Below are positions 3,052-44,004 of a DNA stretch of 64,000 bases, piece by piece; within the stretch, counting starts at the first letter, position 1, and the number at the start of each line of letters is the position of its first letter. This DNA is from a virus, in the IMG/VR virus record IMGVR_UViG_3300022752_004829, positions 19,359-83,358 of that record; one strand, written 5' to 3'. The notes beneath the pieces were generated by a model, which saw only the letters and a program-made list of their open reading frames with translations, ran no database searches and was not told where the DNA came from. The translations under genes were made by a program, and so were the position numbers.

Positions 3052-5313
3052 TTATAATTTACACGCTCCAGAAGAGCAATCTCGATCTTCTTTTTGATTC
3101 ATTAGTTGTTCTTTATCTCCATCGTCTGTATTATTATAATAAAGACTAATTAACCCTAAAGAATAAGCATACATAATTTCCTTCATTACTTTTGCATCTG
3201 GAAGAACATTATTTTCATAATGAGAATAGTTATAGTATACATTAGTTGATATTGCCATGTCAATATATTTTTGAATAACTGCATTTACTTTTAATAAGCC
3301 AGAGTTATCTTTGAAATTATAAGCTAATTCGTAATTATCATCATATTTTCCAACTCCAGGAACTAATACTGGTAACTTACCCATTTTACTCATTTTATAA
3401 GTAATTAAACTACGAATTGGCTCTACTCCATTGGTTGAAGATTGAATTACTGAACTACTTTCGCATGGCATACAAGATGATAAAGTTGAATGCCTTAAAC
3501 CAAATTCCTTAATATCTTTCCTTAGCTTCTCCCAGTCAAGAGATAGTTTCCTTTTACAAAATTCATCTACTTTATCTTTATAAGTATCAATAGGAAGAAT
3601 TCCTTTAGAGTATTTTGTTCTATCAAATTTTTCACACTTGCCTTTTTCTTTAGCAAGTTCTAAACTTGATTTTAAAAGATAGTATTGAAAATGTTCCATC
3701 CATTCATCAAGAACTGGAAGAGCCTTATCGGATGTATATTTTAATTCATTTTTAGCAAGATAGGCTGCTAAATTAGTTATACCTACCCCAAGACTACGAC
3801 GTTTTTTTGCAAAATTTTCAGCAGCAGTATTAAAATAATCTTGAATCTCAATAATTTCATCAAGAAATCTTACAATAAGATCGCAAGTCTTTTCAAGATC
3901 CTGCCAGTTTTTAATTTCTAGCATATTTACTGCGGAAAGAATACACATACCAATTTCACCATTTTTATCATGATAATCATTTAATGGTATTGTGGGATGA
4001 ATAACTTCTGTGCAAAGATTACTCATTGTAACTTTATCTAACCAAGCTCCATGATTATTAGCGTGATCTACATTTAGAATATAAATTCTACCAGTTTCAA
4101 CTCTTTCTTTTATAATTAAAGAAAATAGTTTACGAGCAGATACTTTTTTCTTTATCTTTAGCTTCTTCGTTTCGCATTCTTTATAGACTTTATCGAAATC
4201 TTTTGTTCCCCAAGCTTCATATAATTCTGGAACTTCTGAAGTATTGAATAGAGTAATCTCTTCATCTTTTAAAACTCTATCATAGAATAGTTTACTCATG
4301 CCAACAGTATAATCTAATTTACGGACACGATTATCATCTGTTCCTGCGTTATTTTTTAATACTACAATATCTTCAATTTCGTAGTGCCACCATTGAATAT
4401 TGCAAGTAGCACTTCCGCCACGAAGACCATTTTGTTGCCATGCCTTTACGCTACTCTCATAAATTTTAAGAAATGGAATCAATCCAGTATGAACTACTTC
4501 TCCATTTTTTATAGGAGATCCAATAGCTCTTATCTTTGATACGTCTATACCTATTCCGCACCTACTAGCTGTAGCCATACTTACGGCAGTTGCACTTGCA
4601 GTAATACTTTCTCTACTATCATCAACTCCAATCAAACAGCAACTAGCATAATTTTTACTGGGGGTTCTTACTCCAGCCATTACTGGTGTTGGGAGATTGA
4701 TTTTATGTTTGCTAATAGCATCATAAAATTTACGAACATAATTTAATCTTGTCTCTTGTGGATAGTTTATGAAAGCATAAGCTGCAATTAAAACGTAAGC
4801 GAATTGAGGAGTTTCATAAATTTTTCCTGTTACGCGATCTTTAATAAGATACTTATCGCATAATTGTTTTATTCCAGCGTATGTAAAATTATAATCTCTT
4901 TCATGATCAATAAATTCACCCATCTTATTCATTTCGTCTTCAGAGTATTTTTCTAAAATTATAGAATCATAAATTTTATTTTTTAAACCTTGATTTATAA
5001 ATTCTAATAAACGAGGAGCATGCTTACCTTTCCAAACATCTTTTCTTAGCTGATAATTCAGTAATCTTCCTGCGACATATTGATAATTTGGTTTTTCTAC
5101 AGAAATTAAATTCGCTGAAGACTCAATTAATAATTTATGTATTTCTTTTGTACTAACACCATCTGTCATATTTATCTTCGCATTGATTTCAATATCAGTC
5201 AAACTTACGTTACTCAAATCTTTCGTTGCCCAACTAATAACTCTATGAATTTTTTCTATATTAAATTTTTCAGTTGATCCATTTCTTTTTCTTACGTTTA
5301 TATTCTTACTCAT
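3052..5313 (-). CDS. nrdA: Ribonucleotide reductase class Ia alpha subunit with ATP cone
   Basis: VRKRNG ATP cone, PTPVMAG, SCCL, SNLCTE, MPCESSS, STNGVEP, LYY and C-terminal CSSGACKL; no intein or intron seen. Confidence 0.97.
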   Translation of the reverse strand: MSKNINVRKRNGSTEKFNIEKIHRVISWATKDLSNVSLTDIEINAKINMTDGVSTKEIHKLLIESSANLISVEKPNYQYVAGRLLNYQLRKDVWKGKHAPRLLEFINQGLKNKIYDSIILEKYSEDEMNKMGEFIDHERDYNFTYAGIKQLCDKYLIKDRVTGKIYETPQFAYVLIAAYAFINYPQETRLNYVRKFYDAISKHKINLPTPVMAGVRTPSKNYASCCLIGVDDSRESITASATAVSMATASRCGIGIDVSKIRAIGSPIKNGEVVHTGLIPFLKIYESSVKAWQQNGLRGGSATCNIQWWHYEIEDIVVLKNNAGTDDNRVRKLDYTVGMSKLFYDRVLKDEEITLFNTSEVPELYEAWGTKDFDKVYKECETKKLKIKKKVSARKLFSLIIKERVETGRIYILNVDHANNHGAWLDKVTMSNLCTEVIHPTIPLNDYHDKNGEIGMCILSAVNMLEIKNWQDLEKTCDLIVRFLDEIIEIQDYFNTAAENFAKKRRSLGVGITNLAAYLAKNELKYTSDKALPVLDEWMEHFQYYLLKSSLELAKEKGKCEKFDRTKYSKGILPIDTYKDKVDEFCKRKLSLDWEKLRKDIKEFGLRHSTLSSCMPCESSSVIQSSTNGVEPIRSLITYKMSKMGKLPVLVPGVGKYDDNYELAYNFKDNSGLLKVNAVIQKYIDMAISTNVYYNYSHYENNVLPDAKVMKEIMYAYSLGLISLYYNNTDDGDKEQLMNQKEDRDCSSGACKL

Positions 5314-5430
5314 ATCTTTAGTGTGAATATAAGTTTACAGTATTTTTTTAAAATATAAAAGAAAAAATATTGTGTTATTAACAAATAAATAAATCTTAAT
5401 ACATATAGGTGTACGTAATATTTATTATTA

Positions 5431-5709
5431 TCTTCCCAATGAGCTCCTGCAAAGCGAAGCTTTCCCTGTAATCAGGGTATTTAGAGCTGATTAATTCTTC
5501 TTCCCAATTGAGTCCATAAGCCTTTCGGCTTGCCTAGCACTTATCGGATGTCGGTAGGATCATCCATCGCGCGCTAGCCCTTCCACCTACACTCCCTTAA
5601 TTTCTTAAGGTTCCTCGGGTCGCAAGCTTCGTTAGCGTTGCCCGACGTTTGAATTAATCTAACTCGCTATTTATGTAAATAGCAAAACTTGTGCTTATTT
5701 GGCACTATG
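5431..5709 (-). ncRNA. Putative large structured ncRNA (or cis-regulatory leader / origin RNA) of unrecognised class
   Basis: GC-rich island in an AT-rich intergenic gap with about 10 nested stems, two GAAA tetraloops and a G-U wobble that work on the minus strand, a possible pseudoknot, and a sigma70 promoter directly upstream. Confidence 0.65.
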
Positions 5710-5715
5710 TATAGT

Positions 5716-5744
5716 ATCATACTAACTTATTTTTTATTTGTCAA
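5716..5744 (-). promoter_or_regulatory. Sigma70-type promoter driving the structured RNA / nrdAB direction
   Basis: Minus strand TTGACA (5739-5744), 17 bp spacer, TATGAT (5716-5721). Confidence 0.75.
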
Positions 5745-5765
5745 TTTTATTTTTTGTGGTATAAT
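5738..5765 (+). promoter_or_regulatory. Sigma70-type extended -10 promoter for the glycan island (overlaps the divergent promoter)
   Basis: TTGTCA (5738-5743), 16 bp spacer, TGgTATAAT (5757-5765); ATG at 5772. Confidence 0.6.
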
Positions 5766-5771
5766 ATTTAA

Positions 5772-6533
5772 ATGTTTAGTATCTATAGTTCGGCCTTTAA
5801 TCTCATTAATAATAATTTTGATTATACTGAATCTATTAATAATTTTTGTAGTTTTGCTGATGAAGTAGTAATAGCAGTAAATAAATCAGAGGATAATACA
5901 TTTGAATCGTTAAAATCATTAAATTTTCATAATTTAAAATTAATTAAAACAAACTTCTCTTATCAAGATCCGTTATTAGATGGTAAAATTAAAAATGAAG
6001 CATTACAGAATACGAAAGAAGAATTTAAGATTGGTCTTGATATGGATGAATATATTCCATTATGGCAAAAAGATATCTGGACAAATTTAGCCTATCAGTT
6101 AAGATTTGATATCTATGATTGCTATATGATACCTTCATTGAATCTCTATAAAGATAGAGACAATTATTTTTCAATAGGACATAAATGGTATTTGCACAAA
6201 GGTAATCTTTTTAGAGGAGCAGTTAATTTTGCCAAAAATAAAGACGGAACAGTTGATACCTCAAGGAGTGATACCTGTGAATTGATAGATCTAAATGGAA
6301 ATTTAGTACAATCTAAAATATTTGACAAAGATATTAATACGCTAAGATCTAAAATAGCTCCATTCGTAGTTCATAAAGGATATTTAGATTTACAGAATAG
6401 AATATTAAGAAACAAAAATTTTTGGAAACAACATTGGAAAATTGAGTCTGGAGGTTTTGAGCCAAAGCATAAAGTCCATGAATCACTGGAAGATTTTAAT
6501 GAGAACTATTATAATCATTTACTAGATATATGA
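5772..6533 (+). CDS. GT-A fold (GT2-like) glycosyltransferase
   Basis: FADEVVIAV..SED.T N-terminus and LDMDE DxD motif. Confidence 0.7.
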   Translation: MFSIYSSAFNLINNNFDYTESINNFCSFADEVVIAVNKSEDNTFESLKSLNFHNLKLIKTNFSYQDPLLDGKIKNEALQNTKEEFKIGLDMDEYIPLWQKDIWTNLAYQLRFDIYDCYMIPSLNLYKDRDNYFSIGHKWYLHKGNLFRGAVNFAKNKDGTVDTSRSDTCELIDLNGNLVQSKIFDKDINTLRSKIAPFVVHKGYLDLQNRILRNKNFWKQHWKIESGGFEPKHKVHESLEDFNENYYNHLLDI

Positions 6534-12105: not shown

Positions 12106-13055
12106 TGATAATAGCCAAGACACCATTTAGGATTTCACTGGCTGGAGGATCTACAGATCTTGAATCTTTTTTAGATTTATATGGGCAAGGGTCTGTCATA
12201 AGTTTTCCATGTAATCTTTATACCTATATATCAATTTTTGATGATAAATTAGGTTTTAATTCTTATGATAAGAAATATATAGTTGCATATTCTAAAAGAG
12301 AAGCGACCAATCAAGTAGATAAGATAAAGAATGATATTGCAAGAATTATTCTAAAGAAATATAATATCGCTCCAATTAATGCTACATTTAATTCTGATAT
12401 ATTTAGTTCAAACTGTGGGCTGGCTTCATCTAGTTCTTATACATTATCATTTTTAAATGCTATTTTAAAATTCAAAGGATTAGATTACTCTAATATAGAT
12501 TTATGTAAAGAGGCTTTAGCCATAGAAAGAGAATTCAACCCATTAACTGGACAGCAAGATATTTTTGGATGTGGTATAGGTGGATTCAAAAAGATGGATT
12601 TTTTTAAAGAGAAGAATCCAACATTTAAATATCTCAACGCAGATATGTTTAATAGATATGATTTTAGTTTAATATATACAGGGGTATTGAGATCTTCAAC
12701 TAAAATATTAAAAGAAATAGACCCAAGGAAATCATTTTCTTTACTTAATTTGGTACAGGAAATGGAAATAGCCATAGAAAAAAATAGACATAAAGATTTT
12801 ATCTCTATAATAAAAGAGGGTTGGGTAAAAAAGAAAGAATCAAATCCAAATATTGTATCTAATAAAATAATTAAAAAAATTGATGAAGACCTATCAAATG
12901 ATAAATCTATTTTAGCTCATAGATTATGTGGAGCAGGAAATGGTGGATATTTTTTAGCTATAAAAGAGAAAAGATCAAAAATAAATTTGAATACTAAGTC
13001 TAATATTATTAATATACTTTATGATAAAGAAGGACCAAGGTGCTACAGGATTTAA
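12105..13055 (+). CDS. hddA: GHMP kinase, D-glycero-D-manno-heptose-7-phosphate kinase (HddA-like)
   Basis: KTPFRISLAGGSTD, GLASSS, GQQD..GGF and LCGAGNGG; adjacent to gmhA. Confidence 0.85.
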   Translation: MIIAKTPFRISLAGGSTDLESFLDLYGQGSVISFPCNLYTYISIFDDKLGFNSYDKKYIVAYSKREATNQVDKIKNDIARIILKKYNIAPINATFNSDIFSSNCGLASSSSYTLSFLNAILKFKGLDYSNIDLCKEALAIEREFNPLTGQQDIFGCGIGGFKKMDFFKEKNPTFKYLNADMFNRYDFSLIYTGVLRSSTKILKEIDPRKSFSLLNLVQEMEIAIEKNRHKDFISIIKEGWVKKKESNPNIVSNKIIKKIDEDLSNDKSILAHRLCGAGNGGYFLAIKEKRSKINLNTKSNIINILYDKEGPRCYRI

Positions 13056-40623: not shown

Positions 40624-43600
40624 ATGCCTGGAAATCCAAATCTTTTTAGTGAGGGGTATGAAGGCATAGATTATGTCAGTAATATGGGAATCATGTGGGG
40701 TAATTCTGATATTCCAGATTCATATGCAGCAAGGCATTTTGGTGGAGGTCATACTCTAATTTTTAGTGGTTATGATTGGTGGGGAGCTAATGCTTTTAAT
40801 ACTACTTTATCTTATGCATGGAGTGGTATAGTAGGACCAAGATCACCAATTATAGATTTAACTGGCTCAATGTGGAATGGAAGTGGTACATCAAATATTT
40901 GGCCAAATAATATATTTTTCCAAACAGGAAATACTAGAATACATTGGGATACTCGAAGAGGAGTAGGAGTAGTTACAGATGAAGTTGGAAGATTTTGGAC
41001 TGTTCCACCAGATCCAGATTTTCAAAGACTTTATCATACGGGTGCGCCTAGTTTAAGAACATTATATACTATTCCAAATAGAGTTGGATATAGAGAATTT
41101 TATAATGTTCGTCCATCAGAATCAGGATACTATGATGTCTCAATATCTACATCTCAAAATGTTCACATTTTAGATTTAATATCCGAAGGACCAATTGAAG
41201 GGCTTGTAACAGGATTATATACATATAATGTAAGTGGTAAATCTGCTGGAGATATTGGTTATACATCTTATACTTTTAACCCATTTACTTCACAGAATGC
41301 AGGAGTAGTTTCATCTATATTGGATCCTAGTATAACTATTCCACCAGAAGCTAGATCAATATATTGGAATGATACCCCAGTAGCTACAAATGACGGACTT
41401 TTAAATTTTAGATATACAAACTATAAATTTGATTATGGATCAACAAATATACATACCGTTTCTCAACCATATGTTTATCTATACGAAGATAGATTTCATT
41501 ACGATGGTTACCAAGTTGATAAAAATAAAGTTCCAGTATTGACCGCAAATACTACTCAAGTAAATGAAAGATTATATGGACCATTTTTCTATAGTGGTAT
41601 TGTCTCAGGTTTAATACCTCAGAAAAAATATTATGTATATAATACAGACGCGGACGCAATTAAAATTATTTATAATGTTAATGCTTTATATTCAAATATT
41701 GTTTCTGGAGAATACGCTGGTACATCACTAAGAGACCAAATAAAAATGGGTGTTAAATTATATAGAGTATTTTCTGATAGAAGAGAATCTTTAGCTACTA
41801 CAAGATATATTCAATCAAATCCAGAAAAATGGGCAAGCGATAGCTTTCTTATAAAAGGAAAAATTACTCAACCAGCTTTGATGCATTATACTTTTTGGCT
41901 AAGGCCTTATGCAGATAATGGATTTTTAGTTGAAGTTTTACCAGATCAAATTGGTTGGGCAATTGAAGTACAGAAAATTACAGAAGAATTTTCTCAAAGC
42001 GCAAGATCAAATGCGACTTTCGTTAATAGTATTACAGAAGTATACGCGAATAGATTTACATATCCAAACTCAGCAATGATGTATAATGTATTTAATTCAA
42101 AGTATTTCTCTGAAATTCCAACTAGAAAATATAAAGTACGGCTTTTAAAAGTTAAAGTCCCAATAAATTATGATCCAATAGGCAAAACATATAGTGGGGC
42201 ATGGAATGGACAATTTAAATTAGCCTGGACAGATAATCCAGCCTGGTGTTTTTATGATATAGTAACGAGCAATAGATTTGGATTAGGAAAATATATAAAT
42301 AGTGCTTTGGTTGATAAATGGTCTCTATATGAAATTTCTCAATATTGTGATCAATTAGTTCCAGATGGATATGGAGGATTAGAGCCTAGATTTACATGTA
42401 ATTTACTTATGACAGCTAGAGAAGAAGCCTATAAAGTATTAAATGATATGGCTTCTATTTTTAATGGTTTAGTTTATTATAATGCTGGTTTAATTTTCGT
42501 TAGTCAAGATCGCCCAAAAGATCCAATTTATACTTTTAACTCAAGTAATGTTGTTAATGGTGAATTTAGATATTCAAATAGCTCAAAAAGAGTGCGCAGA
42601 TCTGTTGCCCTTGTTAGATTTAATGATGAATATAATAATTATTTACCTGCAGTTGAATATGTAGAAGATAGAAATAGCGTATTAAAATATGGCATTAGAG
42701 AAGTAGAAGTTACAGCATTTGGATGCACAAAAAGAAGTCAAGCGAGAAGATTAGGAAAATGGTATTTGACTAGTGAAAATCTAGAAACAGAAACGGTAAA
42801 CTTTGATGTTGGTTTAGATGGAAATTTTCTAAGACCAGGAGATATCATAGATCTATATGATGAAAATAGAAAGAATAGGGTCTTCGCAGGTAGGACTTTA
42901 ACGTTTAATAGTAGTGAAGCAATACTAGACGTACCGTATAATAATTCAAATTTATTTGCTTTTACTGGAGTTGTGAATCCAATTTCTATTAATTTTTTAA
43001 CACCAACATATAATTTAAATTTTGGAACTTATTTGGGAGATTTATATATAACTGGATTTCCAAATTCTACCAGTTCTAGCGGAATTTCAGGAATTAATTC
43101 TAATTTTATAAGAAGATCGCAAATTCAAAAATTAACAATAACAGACCCAAAAAATTACGCTTCTCAAGGCACTGGTAATTATACAGGATTTTTAAGAATA
43201 ACATTTCCTTCTGGTCTTAATAGCACAGATTATATTCTTCCAAATAATACAGTCTGGACCATAGACTATAATGCGGCAATTTATTCTGGAAGTAATTTAG
43301 GATTGAATAATAGATATAATATAAATAGTCAAAAAGATCAAAATTTACTTTATCCTGGTTGGTACTTAGAGGGTTACCTAAATGATATAAAACCTTATAG
43401 AATAGTAGATGTAAGGCATAAAGAAGATTCGATATATTCCGTAACAGCGCTTGAGTATACTCCACAGAAATATACAGATATTGTTACTGGCGAATCTTTA
43501 ATTTCTGTTCCTACTAAAATACCTGCTCCAGATTCGCCATCTCTTTCTCTTTCTATTTTATATAGAGATCCAGCTGGAAATTATGGGCCAAATGGAAGTT

Positions 43601-44004
43601 CGCCAGCTTATACAATTGATAAAACTGGAGTTAATTCTGTAGCTTATTCAATAACTCCTCCTTCAAATTCTGGCGTAGTTTCATTTTATAATATATATAG
43701 AAGATTAGGATCTAATTTTAATACCCCAATTCAAGCAGGAGACTTATTTGATGTTCAATCCGCGAATCTAAGAGGCCAAACTTTAGTATTACCTATAGCT
43801 AGCATTTCTGGAAATACTCCACCATTTTTCACGCCAACAGGCATTGGTACTTGGTATATAGGTTTAGAAGCAGTAAATGCATATGGAGAAAAATCTCCAT
43901 TTGTAAGCGGAACAATAACACTAAGTTCTCAAGCTCCATTAGCTACTGTATTAGCTTCTGGATTTAATATTGTTGGTGGTAATAATTTACCAGATAATAT
44001 ATAA
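40624..44004 (+). CDS. Central tail tip / host-specificity protein, lambda gpJ-like
   Basis: DLISEGPIEGL, KVKVP.NYDP..Y.G.W.G.FK.AWTDNPAW, EPRFTCN, AFGCT..QA.R.G.W and PGDII. Confidence 0.92.
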   Translation: MPGNPNLFSEGYEGIDYVSNMGIMWGNSDIPDSYAARHFGGGHTLIFSGYDWWGANAFNTTLSYAWSGIVGPRSPIIDLTGSMWNGSGTSNIWPNNIFFQTGNTRIHWDTRRGVGVVTDEVGRFWTVPPDPDFQRLYHTGAPSLRTLYTIPNRVGYREFYNVRPSESGYYDVSISTSQNVHILDLISEGPIEGLVTGLYTYNVSGKSAGDIGYTSYTFNPFTSQNAGVVSSILDPSITIPPEARSIYWNDTPVATNDGLLNFRYTNYKFDYGSTNIHTVSQPYVYLYEDRFHYDGYQVDKNKVPVLTANTTQVNERLYGPFFYSGIVSGLIPQKKYYVYNTDADAIKIIYNVNALYSNIVSGEYAGTSLRDQIKMGVKLYRVFSDRRESLATTRYIQSNPEKWASDSFLIKGKITQPALMHYTFWLRPYADNGFLVEVLPDQIGWAIEVQKITEEFSQSARSNATFVNSITEVYANRFTYPNSAMMYNVFNSKYFSEIPTRKYKVRLLKVKVPINYDPIGKTYSGAWNGQFKLAWTDNPAWCFYDIVTSNRFGLGKYINSALVDKWSLYEISQYCDQLVPDGYGGLEPRFTCNLLMTAREEAYKVLNDMASIFNGLVYYNAGLIFVSQDRPKDPIYTFNSSNVVNGEFRYSNSSKRVRRSVALVRFNDEYNNYLPAVEYVEDRNSVLKYGIREVEVTAFGCTKRSQARRLGKWYLTSENLETETVNFDVGLDGNFLRPGDIIDLYDENRKNRVFAGRTLTFNSSEAILDVPYNNSNLFAFTGVVNPISINFLTPTYNLNFGTYLGDLYITGFPNSTSSSGISGINSNFIRRSQIQKLTITDPKNYASQGTGNYTGFLRITFPSGLNSTDYILPNNTVWTIDYNAAIYSGSNLGLNNRYNINSQKDQNLLYPGWYLEGYLNDIKPYRIVDVRHKEDSIYSVTALEYTPQKYTDIVTGESLISVPTKIPAPDSPSLSLSILYRDPAGNYGPNGSSPAYTIDKTGVNSVAYSITPPSNSGVVSFYNIYRRLGSNFNTPIQAGDLFDVQSANLRGQTLVLPIASISGNTPPFFTPTGIGTWYIGLEAVNAYGEKSPFVSGTITLSSQAPLATVLASGFNIVGGNNLPDNI

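What the first reader, a model, noticed from the sequence alone, without database searches (positions are those of the whole stretch)
5431..5709. Unannotated ~280-nt multi-stem, pseudoknotted RNA with its own promoter at the nrdA / glycan-island divergence
Seen (plus-strand coordinates): closing stem 5489-5497/5651-5659 (9 bp) enclosing 5615-5619/5641-5645, 5595-5600/5605-5610 (GAAA loop on minus), 5510-5513/5591-5594, 5534-5540/5571-5577 (G-U pair only on minus), 5546-5550/5561-5565 and 5518-5522/5527-5531 (GAAA loop on minus). The loop 5554-5558 is complementary to 5586-5590, a possible pseudoknot. A 3' three-way domain (5442-5446/5484-5488 with 5451-5463 and 5464-5477) and 5' hairpins (5666-5683, 5691-5705) flank it. 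A TTGACA-17-TATGAT promoter points into it, it has no ORF, and it is visibly GC-richer than its flanks. I recognise no tRNA, tmRNA, RNase P, intron or riboswitch. Inference: a novel phage ncRNA class, a nucleotide-sensing leader of nrdAB, or a replication-primer RNA.
Basis: partly seen in the sequence, partly recalled or inferred. Interest (0 to 1): 0.8.

Follow-up and report, generated by a model that had tools for sequence, protein, structure and literature searches.

The report
Stand-alone knotted twin-box phage RNA
The GC-rich gap before nrdA is a real, separately transcribed gene for a roughly 283-base pseudoknotted RNA of uncultured lake phages that matches no catalogued RNA family, does not control nrdA, and carries two short purine-rich stretches that always mutate together, by a mechanism still unknown.

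Summary
Window 5428-5710 (minus strand) folds far better than shuffles (z -4.87). It has a near-consensus promoter, no ORF of 40 aa or more on its strand and no Rfam match.

Homologues occur in 48 of 80 related IMG/VR loci and in at least 4 more records.

It is not an nrdAB leader:
- In two subfamilies it lies downstream of and convergent to the nrd operon, back to back with a phage tmRNA.
- In L012 another gene separates it from nrdA.
- nrdA keeps its own conserved upstream block with or without the RNA.

The most telling feature is a pair of single-stranded boxes 65-75 nt apart. They are identical over at least 10 nt in 50 of 50 distinct RNAs despite 14 sequence variants, with a 15th in an independent contig. 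I found no third covarying site, antisense target, reverse transcriptase or hidden ORF.

The function is unknown. My best guess is a trans-acting RNA whose twin boxes engage one common partner. This scan had already found the same family on other phage genomes.

The parts
5716..5744 (-). Sigma-70-type promoter of the RNA: -35 TTGACA, 17-nt spacer, -10 TATGAT
   Evidence: 11 of 12 consensus matches; 53 of 57 RNA loci have exact TTGACA-17-TAnnnT, then 5-9 nt to the A[C/A/U]AU start.
5428..5710 (-). The RNA gene (283 nt as matched by the model). It starts at the conserved ACAUAG. The 3' end has not been mapped experimentally.
   Evidence: (298.9 bits to model R1).
5691..5705 (-). 5' hairpin P1 (GUGCC..GCAC)
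   Evidence: A hairpin occupies this place in every subfamily. Not scored for covariation.
5666..5683 (-). Hairpin P2
   Evidence: helix 2: 3 of 5 pairs show changes on both sides.
5651..5665 (-). 5' strands of the long-range closing helices P3 (5661-5665) and P4 (5651-5658)
   Evidence: helix 3: 8 of 13 pairs show double changes. helix 2: 7 of 7.
5484..5497 (-). 3' strands of P4 (5490-5497) and P3 (5484-5488)
5617..5643 (-). Hairpin P5x/P5 (GGG CAACGCU ... AGCUUG CGA CCC)
   Evidence: helices 4 and 5. helices 3 and 4: all 5 pairs covary between subfamilies.
5595..5610 (-). Hairpin P7 with a GAAA loop
   Evidence: helix 6: 3 of 6 pairs show double changes.
5586..5590 (-). Pseudoknot 5' strand, GUAGG
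   Evidence: helix 6: 96% of cells paired and 2 of 5 pairs show double changes (GUAGG/CCUAC, GUAGC/GCUAC, GUGGC/GCCAC)..
5534..5577 (-). P8 (5571-5577/5534-5540) enclosing P9 (5561-5564/5547-5550). The P9 loop holds the pseudoknot 3' strand CCUAC (5554-5558).
5519..5530 (-). Hairpin P10 with a GAAA loop
   Evidence: helix 10.
5499..5515 (-). Module 1: GGA-CUCA plus twin box 1 (AUUGGGAAGA at 5499-5508). It lies in the central junction just 5' of the P4 3' strand.
5451..5476 (-). 3' domain hairpins P11 (CCCUG..CAGGG) and P12 (AAAGC UUCG CUUUG)
   Evidence: helices 11 and 12.
5431..5447 (-). Module 2: GGAG-CUCA plus twin box 2 (AUUGGGAAGA at 5431-5440). GGAGCU (5442-5447) is predicted to pair with AGUUUU (5684-5689).
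   Evidence: (helix 1: 100% paired in 50 sequences, little variation).
5314..5427 (-). nrdA's own upstream region (GTACAC .. TGTTAATAAC .. TTTTCTTTT .. CTGTAA), which is not part of the RNA
   Evidence: the same block stands upstream of nrdA in loci with and without the RNA.

Best explanation
This is a stand-alone gene for a roughly 283-nt non-coding RNA. It is transcribed by the host RNA polymerase from its own near-consensus sigma-70 promoter, so presumably early in infection.

The RNA folds into a compact multi-helix core. Two long-range helices (P3/P4) close the core, and a pseudoknot between the P9 loop and the strand before P8 locks it.

From this scaffold it presents two copies of one module: GGA, then UCA, then a purine-rich 10-13-nt box. 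One copy sits in the central junction and the other at the 3' end.

Shown: the gene, its promoter, the fold, its independence from nrdA, and the strict identity of the two boxes through at least 15 sequence variants.

Inferred: the RNA acts in trans, and the two boxes are its working parts. Both must be read by one and the same partner. The most likely arrangement is a bivalent decoy or scaffold that holds two copies, or two sites, of a host or phage factor. The alternative is that the boxes contact each other.

I put about 0.9 on the gene and fold part and about 0.35 on the common-partner decoy mechanism. The confidence given is for the whole statement.
For: Fold and family.
- z -4.87 against shuffles.
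- 48 of 80 related loci carry a full-length match. At least 4 more records do as well.
- On 19 distinct close homologues, 66 pairs are 99.5% paired and 22 pairs show double changes. Slid controls give 29-52% paired.
- On 50 distinct RNAs of five subfamilies, 31 pairs including the pseudoknot are 95.2% paired and 23 pairs show double changes. 0 of 500 shuffles reach the observed covariation score, percentage paired or number of pairs with double changes.

Own transcription unit. 53 of 57 loci have exact TTGACA-17-TAnnnT followed by the conserved start.

Trans-acting, not a leader.
- Its position varies: upstream of nrdA, upstream of another gene, or convergent to the nrd operon beside the tmRNA gene.
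- nrdA has its own conserved upstream block.

Twin boxes.
- 50 of 50 distinct RNAs share at least 10 identical nt between the boxes, with 14 variants of the shared string.
- Single lineages changed both copies: L068 ACUGGGAAGU, L069 AUUGGAAAGUA, L072 AUUGGGAAUUU.
- A diverged contig from another lake run shows U>A in both boxes.
- A constant 1-nt difference just before the boxes (an extra A in box 1) is kept in every subfamily. This argues for selection rather than blanket gene conversion.
- The boxes are predicted to be less paired than the rest: unpaired probability 0.66 and 0.58 against 0.41.
Against: No partner was found.
- No segment of the RNA complements the boxes consistently across subfamilies.
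- No third site changes along with the box in L068, L069 or L072.
- No antisense copy occurs in 11 phage records that are 30-87% complete.
- No SmpB, RtcB or CsrA gene occurs in 6 records.

A partner outside the RNA would have to change along with 15 box variants. That is demanding.

The 3' end is not defined: no consistent terminator follows box 2. Read-through into nrdA in this phage therefore cannot be excluded.
Confidence: 0.4

Rival explanations
1. Self-assembling 'ornate' RNA. The two boxes pair like with like (A-A, G-G, U-U), within one molecule or head-to-tail between copies, and build a dimer or larger RNA-only assembly. Identity is then the pairing rule itself, so no third partner is needed.
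For: Identity covariation without any third covarying site. The boxes are purine-rich and unpaired in Watson-Crick terms.

Precedent: the OLE RNA dimer is held by four symmetric A-A pairs between identical strands, and GOLLD and ROOL, phage RNAs found near tRNA islands, form homo-oligomers (PMC12286853; abstract and passages read). This RNA sits beside the phage tmRNA in two subfamilies.
Against: Position-by-position identity implies parallel strands, which is rare in RNA. The boxes contain U, and in L068 C, and their homo-pairs are not isosteric with purine pairs.

In the predicted fold the boxes lie at opposite ends of the P3/P4/closing-helix stack, so contact within one molecule looks strained. 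No structure or assembly data exist.
Confidence: 0.12
2. Primer or R-loop RNA of a replication origin. The transcript stays hybridised through its purine-rich tracts and is processed to prime DNA synthesis, as in ColE1 RNA II or T4 oriF/oriG (mechanisms recalled from memory, not read here).
For: Strong promoter. Purine-rich RNA tracts followed by very AT-rich DNA. No terminator. The cumulative GC-skew minimum of the window falls in the bin 4001-6000. The locus neighbours nucleotide-metabolism genes.
Against: The skew minimum coincides with the switch of gene orientation, so it is confounded. The RNA occupies different places and orientations in different subfamilies.

A primer model does not explain an elaborate covarying core or why box 1 must equal box 2.
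Confidence: 0.1
3. Template with realignment. A polymerase copies the stretch up to one box, and the product re-pairs with the other identical box. Telomerase, the DRT2/DRT10 ncRNAs and retroviral R repeats work this way. The mechanism would keep the boxes identical.
For: Two identical direct repeats flank a unit of constant length, 65-75 nt, with no third site. An earlier agent of this scan proposed this idea.

DRT2 and DRT10 template RNAs are described in the listings and passages seen.
Against: No RVT_1 reverse transcriptase in the phage's own record or in 4 of 4 RNA-bearing records 63-87% complete.

The concatenated inter-box unit is open in some frame in only 9 of 50 RNAs, all with unit lengths divisible by 3, so there is no Neo-like hidden ORF.

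The inter-box unit holds the 3' strands of P3 and P4, which are structural.
Confidence: 0.07
4. Cis-acting leader or riboswitch of nrdAB.
For: In this window and in 25 of the 48 other RNA-bearing loci the RNA lies 110-135 nt upstream of nrdA on the same strand, and no terminator is detected.
Against: 22 of those 48 loci have the RNA downstream of the nrd operon and convergent to it. L012 has a 371-aa gene in between. Three records have the RNA beside the tmRNA gene and outside the 8-kb nrdA loci of the same records, which hold no match.

nrdA's upstream block is the same with and without the RNA. No riboswitch family matches.
Confidence: 0.03
5. A ribozyme, or a precursor cut at two equivalent sites. 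The boxes are the two processing sites, which release or remove the 65-75-nt 3' domain.
For: A compact pseudoknotted core with many invariant unpaired positions. Two equivalent sites, one of them at the apparent 3' end.
Against: No internal guide complementary to the boxes. No match to any ribozyme family in Rfam. No RtcB ligase. Cleavage sites need not be identical at variable positions.
Confidence: 0.07

Closest known systems
GOLLD (RF01998), ROOL (RF03087) and OLE: large 'ornate' RNAs of phages, prophages and bacteria (PMC12286853; abstract and passages read)
   Same: Phage-encoded and separately transcribed. Heavily structured with pseudoknots. Unknown function. Located next to stable-RNA genes (tmRNA here, tRNA islands there). 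OLE uses a like-with-like A-A bridge.
   Different: No sequence or structure homology: no Rfam hit at gathering score or at E up to 10. Only about 283-320 nt, against more than 500-800. Oligomerisation is untested. Twin boxes are not described for those RNAs in the passages I read.
ColE1 RNA II and T4 oriF/oriG R-loop transcripts (recalled, no paper read)
   Same: A promoter-driven structured transcript without a clear terminator, with purine-rich tracts followed by AT-rich DNA.
   Different: No fixed genomic position. No origin evidence beyond a confounded skew minimum. Twin-box identity has no role in those systems.
Telomerase RNA and DRT2/DRT10 template ncRNAs (listing and passages)
   Same: Identical short sequences at the two borders of a defined unit, which would allow a product to realign.
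   Different: No reverse transcriptase in 5 of 5 records searched. No open concatemer frame. The unit is part of the structural core.
nutL/nutR boxB pairs of lambdoid phages (recalled, not read)
   Same: Two near-identical RNA sites in one phage. They differ between phages because one phage protein reads both.
   Different: Those sites are hairpins in two different transcripts. They act in cis on RNA polymerase and have a known protein partner. Here both sites are single strands in one stable RNA, and no partner is known.
Candidate structured RNAs predicted from IMG/VR (PMC10690425; passages read)
   Same: The same data source (IMG/VR intergenic regions) and the same kind of evidence (covariation).
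   Different: Those candidates are 29-151 nt long, and the passages mention no nrd- or tmRNA-linked 280-nt RNA.

Membership tests
Any Rfam 15 family | Covariance-model score at or above the family's gathering score | tested here: not met
   0 matches in the whole window. In 5300-5800 at E up to 10 there were only mir-944 (E 1.1) and a snoRNA (E 4.6). In 6 related loci only tmRNA matched.
Riboswitch or cis-leader of nrdAB | Constant position in the 5' UTR of the regulated gene across homologues | tested here: not met
   22 of 48 RNA-bearing loci have it convergent and downstream of the operon. L012 has another gene in between. Three records have it beside the tmRNA gene and not within 3 kb of nrdA.
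Riboswitch or cis-leader of nrdAB | An expression platform (terminator or RBS-sequestering helix) linked to the aptamer | tested here: not met
   No terminator-like site. No consistent hairpin plus U-run after box 2 in 16 representatives. nrdA has its own conserved upstream block.
tmRNA / tRNA | tRNA-like acceptor and T arms; tag reading frame | tested here: not met
   ARAGORN finds nothing in the window, although it and Rfam both find the true phage tmRNA in relatives and in the phage's own record.
GOLLD / ROOL ornate phage RNAs | Homology to the family model | tested here: not met
GOLLD / ROOL ornate phage RNAs | Homo-oligomeric RNA-only assembly | not testable with these tools
   Needs native gels, mass photometry or cryo-EM.
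Template RNA of a reverse transcriptase (DRT2-like, telomerase-like) | A reverse transcriptase encoded with the RNA | tested here: not met
   PF00078 is absent from the phage's own record and from G003, G040, G041 and G042. The control genomes gave hits.
Template RNA of a reverse transcriptase (DRT2-like, telomerase-like) | Repeat at both borders of the template | tested here: met
   Twin boxes 65-75 nt apart in 50 of 50 RNAs.
Template RNA of a reverse transcriptase (DRT2-like, telomerase-like) | Stop-free frame in the concatenated unit (DRT2 type only) | tested here: not met
   9 of 50 have any stop-free frame.
Mini-CRISPR array / RNA anti-CRISPR (repeat mimic) | Whole repeats identical, with a variable spacer between them | tested here: not met
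   Only the last 10-20 nt of the two modules agree. The stretch between them is conserved and forms the 3' strands of P3/P4 and P11.
Replication primer RNA (ColE1 RNA II type) | Transcript ends at a mapped origin and forms a persistent hybrid | not testable with these tools
   The only indirect evidence is a GC-skew minimum at the locus, confounded with gene orientation.

The most novel reading that the evidence does not exclude
The two boxes stay identical because identity is the pairing rule. They would form a like-with-like, parallel purine zipper (A-A, G-G, U-U), either inside one RNA or head-to-tail between copies, so that this small phage RNA self-assembles into an RNA-only complex. It would be the first natural RNA in which homo-base pairing is revealed by 'identity covariation', which would give a new signature to mine for in other RNAs.
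Probability: 0.1. Interest if true: 0.9.

Novelty: categorically new. Interest (0 to 1): 0.78.

Why it matters
Phage-encoded structured RNAs of unknown function, such as GOLLD and ROOL, are a long-standing puzzle. This one is small enough for direct biochemistry: 283-320 nt, with one promoter and a clear covariation-backed fold.

It also comes with a built-in genetic handle. Its two 10-13-nt boxes have changed together at least 15 times, and no known pairing rule, partner or copying enzyme accounts for that. Changing one box, then both, is a clean test that would distinguish a common partner, self-pairing and templated copying.

The RNA is common in a widespread group of uncultured lake phages that also carry their own tmRNA. 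It may therefore point to an unrecognised layer of host take-over or defence evasion that acts through RNA.

For annotation, the result shows that the 'GC-rich gap before nrdA' is a gene in its own right and not an nrdA regulatory region.

Tried and rejected
Expression data. The look-up of sequencing runs listed 19 runs, of which 17 hold part of the stretch. None is on record as RNA: no RNA holder is listed, so expression and transcript ends could not be examined. Read laying on four DNA runs (Logan contigs only) showed no joint across the boxes, but contigs cannot show rare variants.

Host or bacterial copies. A genome-contig scan with a 21-letter pattern from the core found 0 stretches.

GenBank phages. 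blastn of 5400-5760 gave no match. The best cultured nrdA relatives are Pelagibacter and Synechococcus myoviruses at only 50-53% identity, so the host stays unknown.

Partner searches.
- RNAduplex of the box against its own RNA and against the phage tmRNA of three subfamilies gave no consistent site.
- Antisense copies were absent from G000-G002, G036-G039 and G003, G040-G042.
- G036 has a third same-strand copy of its 10-mer at 12936, which I take for chance.
- TTGGGAA is not enriched in the window: 12 found against 10.9 expected.

Coding. The inter-box unit gives no conserved frame. I read the short frames across the boxes by eye and dropped them, because the two boxes fall in different frames.

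The genome search with model R1 on 32 records that seemed to lack the RNA reported 1 hit. This negative result is unreliable: direct cmsearch on the tmRNA flanks of three of those records found the RNA at 33.6-45.7 bits. I therefore do not claim absence for the 28 records still without a hit; 25 of them are no more than 53% complete, G023 (48%) among them, and the other three are G004-set records G010-like in size only in part: G028 43%, G031 74% and G013 53% are the largest.

NrdR boxes. I recalled a consensus and saw ACAC-rich words after the RNA. The comparison shows a conserved block but no clear palindrome, so I make no NrdR claim.

Literature. Three searches and passages of PMC10690425 and of bioRxiv 10.64898/2026.09.22.753630 gave no description of this RNA. 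Supplementary tables were closed, so a partial motif among the 8,495 IMG/VR candidates cannot be excluded.

Rows dropped. The twin-box and A5 counts use 50 distinct RNAs. I left out L031, L054, L003 and L014, which are exact duplicates or have the same score and coordinates as a kept row. I also left out L122, L158 and L082, which have the same scores as kept rows and were not compared letter by letter, and L176, L177 and L180, which were found later. Their boxes, read, are the subfamily B form in both copies.
Full report
WHAT IS THERE. The window is part of an 83-kb IMG/VR virus record that is AT-rich and estimated 54% complete. Between the start of nrdA (3052-5313, minus strand; Pfam ATP-cone, Ribonuc_red_lgN and Ribonuc_red_lgC) and a plus-strand glycosyltransferase and methyltransferase cluster lies a 458-nt gap. 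Its middle is much richer in G+C than its surroundings: 0.43-0.55 against 0.15-0.27.

On the minus strand the stretch 5431-5709 folds to -89.1 kcal/mol, against -68.5 +/- 4.2 for 200 shuffles (z -4.87, none as good). The plus strand gives z -2.96. A TTGACA-17-TATGAT promoter on the minus strand (5744..5716) points into it. There is no ORF of 40 aa or more on that strand, no tRNA or tmRNA, and no Rfam family, either at gathering score for the whole window or in any meaningful way at E up to 10 for 5300-5800.

A FAMILY WITH A COVARYING FOLD. I used the nrdA protein to fetch 80 related IMG/VR loci. nhmmer found the RNA in 21 of them. A covariance model built from 20 close homologues found full-length matches in 48 of the 80 loci plus the window. 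Twenty of these are close (285-328 bits) and 28 are divergent (31-58 bits).

A DNA-pattern scan of IMG/VR returned 89 stretches. Of the 80 loci handed over, 24 hold the RNA, and 7 of those lie on contigs not seen before.

The sequences fall into five subfamilies, which I call A (this window), B, C, D and E.
- On 19 distinct A sequences, a structure of 66 pairs is 99.5% paired. 22 pairs changed on both sides, and slid controls give 29-52% paired.
- On 50 distinct RNAs of all subfamilies, the 31 pairs that a plain sequence alignment keeps in register are 95.2% paired. 23 pairs show double changes, and 0 of 500 shuffles reach the observed covariation score.

Two pairings are not supported:
- The 4-bp pairing 5510-5513/5591-5594 is broken in five A sequences.
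- The '3' three-way' closing helix 5442-5446/5484-5488 conflicts with the well-supported P3 (5484-5488 with 5661-5665).

The promoter is part of the family. 53 of 57 loci have exact TTGACA, a 17-nt spacer and TAnnnT, and 5-9 nt later the conserved start A[C/A/U]AU.

NOT AN nrdA LEADER.
- In 22 of the 48 RNA-bearing loci the RNA lies 1.4-2.7 kb downstream of nrdA's end on the opposite strand. It therefore converges on the nrd operon.
- In subfamilies B and C it is transcribed back to back with a phage tmRNA gene.
- In L012 a 371-aa gene separates it from nrdA.
- Three records hold no match in their 8-kb nrdA loci but have the RNA beside the tmRNA gene.
- A conserved block (GTACAC .. TGTTAATAAC .. 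TTTTCTTTT .. CTGTAA or ATGTAATAT) precedes nrdA in loci with the RNA upstream, with the RNA elsewhere, and without a detected RNA. nrdA thus has its own control region downstream of the RNA gene.

This phage's own tmRNA lies about 11 kb away, outside the window. The RNA is thus a stand-alone gene. In this subfamily read-through into nrdA remains possible, because no terminator follows it.

THE TWIN BOXES. Each RNA carries two copies of one module: GGA, 1-3 nt, UCA (UUA in subfamily C), then a purine-rich box. One copy lies in the central junction just before the 3' strand of P4. In the window this is module 5499-5515, with the box at 5499-5508. The other lies at the 3' end: module 5431-5447, box 5431-5440.

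In 50 of 50 distinct RNAs the two boxes are identical over at least 10 nt, 65-75 nt apart. The shared string has 14 variants, for example AUUGGGAAGA (this window), AUUGGGAAAAU, AUUGGGAAAUA, AAAGAAAAGUU and AGGGAAAAAGUUU. Single lineages changed both copies: L068 U>C, L069 G>A, L072 G>U.

An independent, diverged contig from another lake metagenome shows U>A at the same position of both boxes. No sequence with unequal boxes was seen.

A 1-nt difference just before the boxes (box 1 has one more A) is kept in every subfamily. The two modules are therefore not simply being homogenised, and identity looks selected. The boxes are predicted to be less paired than the RNA as a whole: 0.66 and 0.58 against 0.41.

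WHAT THE BOXES DO NOT DO.
- They have no consistent complement within the RNA.
- In the three lineages with private box changes, no third position changed in step.
- No antisense copy exists in 11 phage records that are 30-87% complete, and there is no consistent site in the phage tmRNA.
- No reverse transcriptase is encoded in the phage's own record or in four RNA-bearing records 63-87% complete.
- The concatenated inter-box unit is stop-free in only 9 of 50 RNAs.
- No SmpB, RtcB or CsrA gene was found in six records.
- The core motif is absent from 185,579 prokaryote species genomes, so the RNA does not look borrowed from a sequenced host.

HOW IT MOST LIKELY WORKS. Shown: a strongly promoted, separately encoded RNA with a rigid, pseudoknot-locked scaffold and two equivalent exposed boxes. 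Inferred: it acts in trans and the boxes are its working parts.

I commit to a bivalent decoy or scaffold that engages one partner through both boxes, at about 0.35. The known precedent for twin RNA sites that drift yet stay alike is a single reader (the lambdoid nut sites, recalled from memory). The weakness of this model is that the partner must have followed 15 box variants, and I could not find it.

The leading alternative needs no partner: the boxes pair like with like. The OLE RNA dimer is welded by four symmetric A-A pairs between identical strands, and the phage RNAs GOLLD and ROOL are RNA-only homo-oligomers (PMC12286853; abstract and passages). Templated realignment, a primer or R-loop role, and two-site processing remain possible at lower odds. 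The nrdA-leader reading is essentially excluded.

COMPARISON AND NOVELTY. The RNA works most like the 'ornate' phage RNAs, but it is not a member of any of those families. Three literature searches and two papers read in part gave no description of it.

This scan had already met the same family on other phage genomes, and earlier agents reached similar readings. I had seen the twin boxes and the tmRNA neighbourhood before opening those notes.

My own additions:
- the 50-of-50 identity count with 14 variants, plus a 15th from independent contigs;
- the preserved 1-nt offset;
- the third-site test;
- the exclusions of a reverse transcriptase, a hidden ORF and an antisense target;
- the conserved nrdA upstream block;
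- the OLE precedent for like-with-like pairing.

LIMITS.
- There are no expression data.
- The 3' end and the host are unknown.
- The cross-subfamily alignment keeps only 31 pairs in register.
- The shuffle control ignores phylogeny, so the slid controls are the fairer comparison.
- Absence of the RNA from the 28 remaining related records cannot be claimed, because the whole-record search missed at least three true copies.

Noticed in passing
G000:C1:13011-13402 (about 6 kb before the window start); also L020:7807-8196, L059:7691-8107, L171-L173, L176-L180: The phage and all 10 relatives checked encode a full-length one-piece tmRNA (92-112 bits to RF00023). ARAGORN predicts unusually long tags of 24 residues. 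No SmpB gene was found in 6 records.
   Followed up: partly
window 5314-5427 (minus strand) and the 130 nt upstream of nrdA in 15 loci: A conserved block GTACAC .. TGTTAATAAC .. TTTTCTTTT .. CTGTAA/ATGTAATAT precedes nrdA whether or not the RNA gene is there. It is a candidate phage-specific promoter or operator of the nrd operon. I recalled NrdR boxes but could not confirm a palindrome.
   Followed up: partly
window 5738-5765 (plus strand): A second strong promoter-like site (TTGTCA-16-TATAAT with a TG extension) overlaps the RNA promoter back to back and faces the glycan gene cluster that starts at 5772.
   Followed up: no
records G005, G010, G018 (loci L176, L177, L180): the genome search with the RNA model reported no match in these records, yet direct cmsearch on the tmRNA flanks finds the RNA at 33.6-45.7 bits. 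Whole-record RNA searches gave false negatives here.
   Followed up: yes
window, bins 4001-6000 and 42001-44000: Cumulative GC skew has its minimum at the RNA locus and its maximum near 44 kb. Both coincide with switches of gene orientation, so the skew alone cannot mark an origin or terminus.
   Followed up: partly
L012:1790-2905: In one relative a 371-aa gene sits between the RNA gene and nrdA, so this intergenic slot accepts insertions. I did not run the gene against Pfam.
   Followed up: no
L020:7282-7713 (minus strand): In subfamily B a 143-aa ORF without a Pfam match lies directly upstream of the RNA promoter on the same strand. It is absent at that place in subfamily C, so I did not treat it as a partner.
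   Followed up: partly
G036:C1:12936-12945: A third same-strand copy of L068's private box variant (ACTGGGAAGT) lies 14 kb from the RNA gene. One such hit is roughly what chance allows, and no other record shows one.
   Followed up: no
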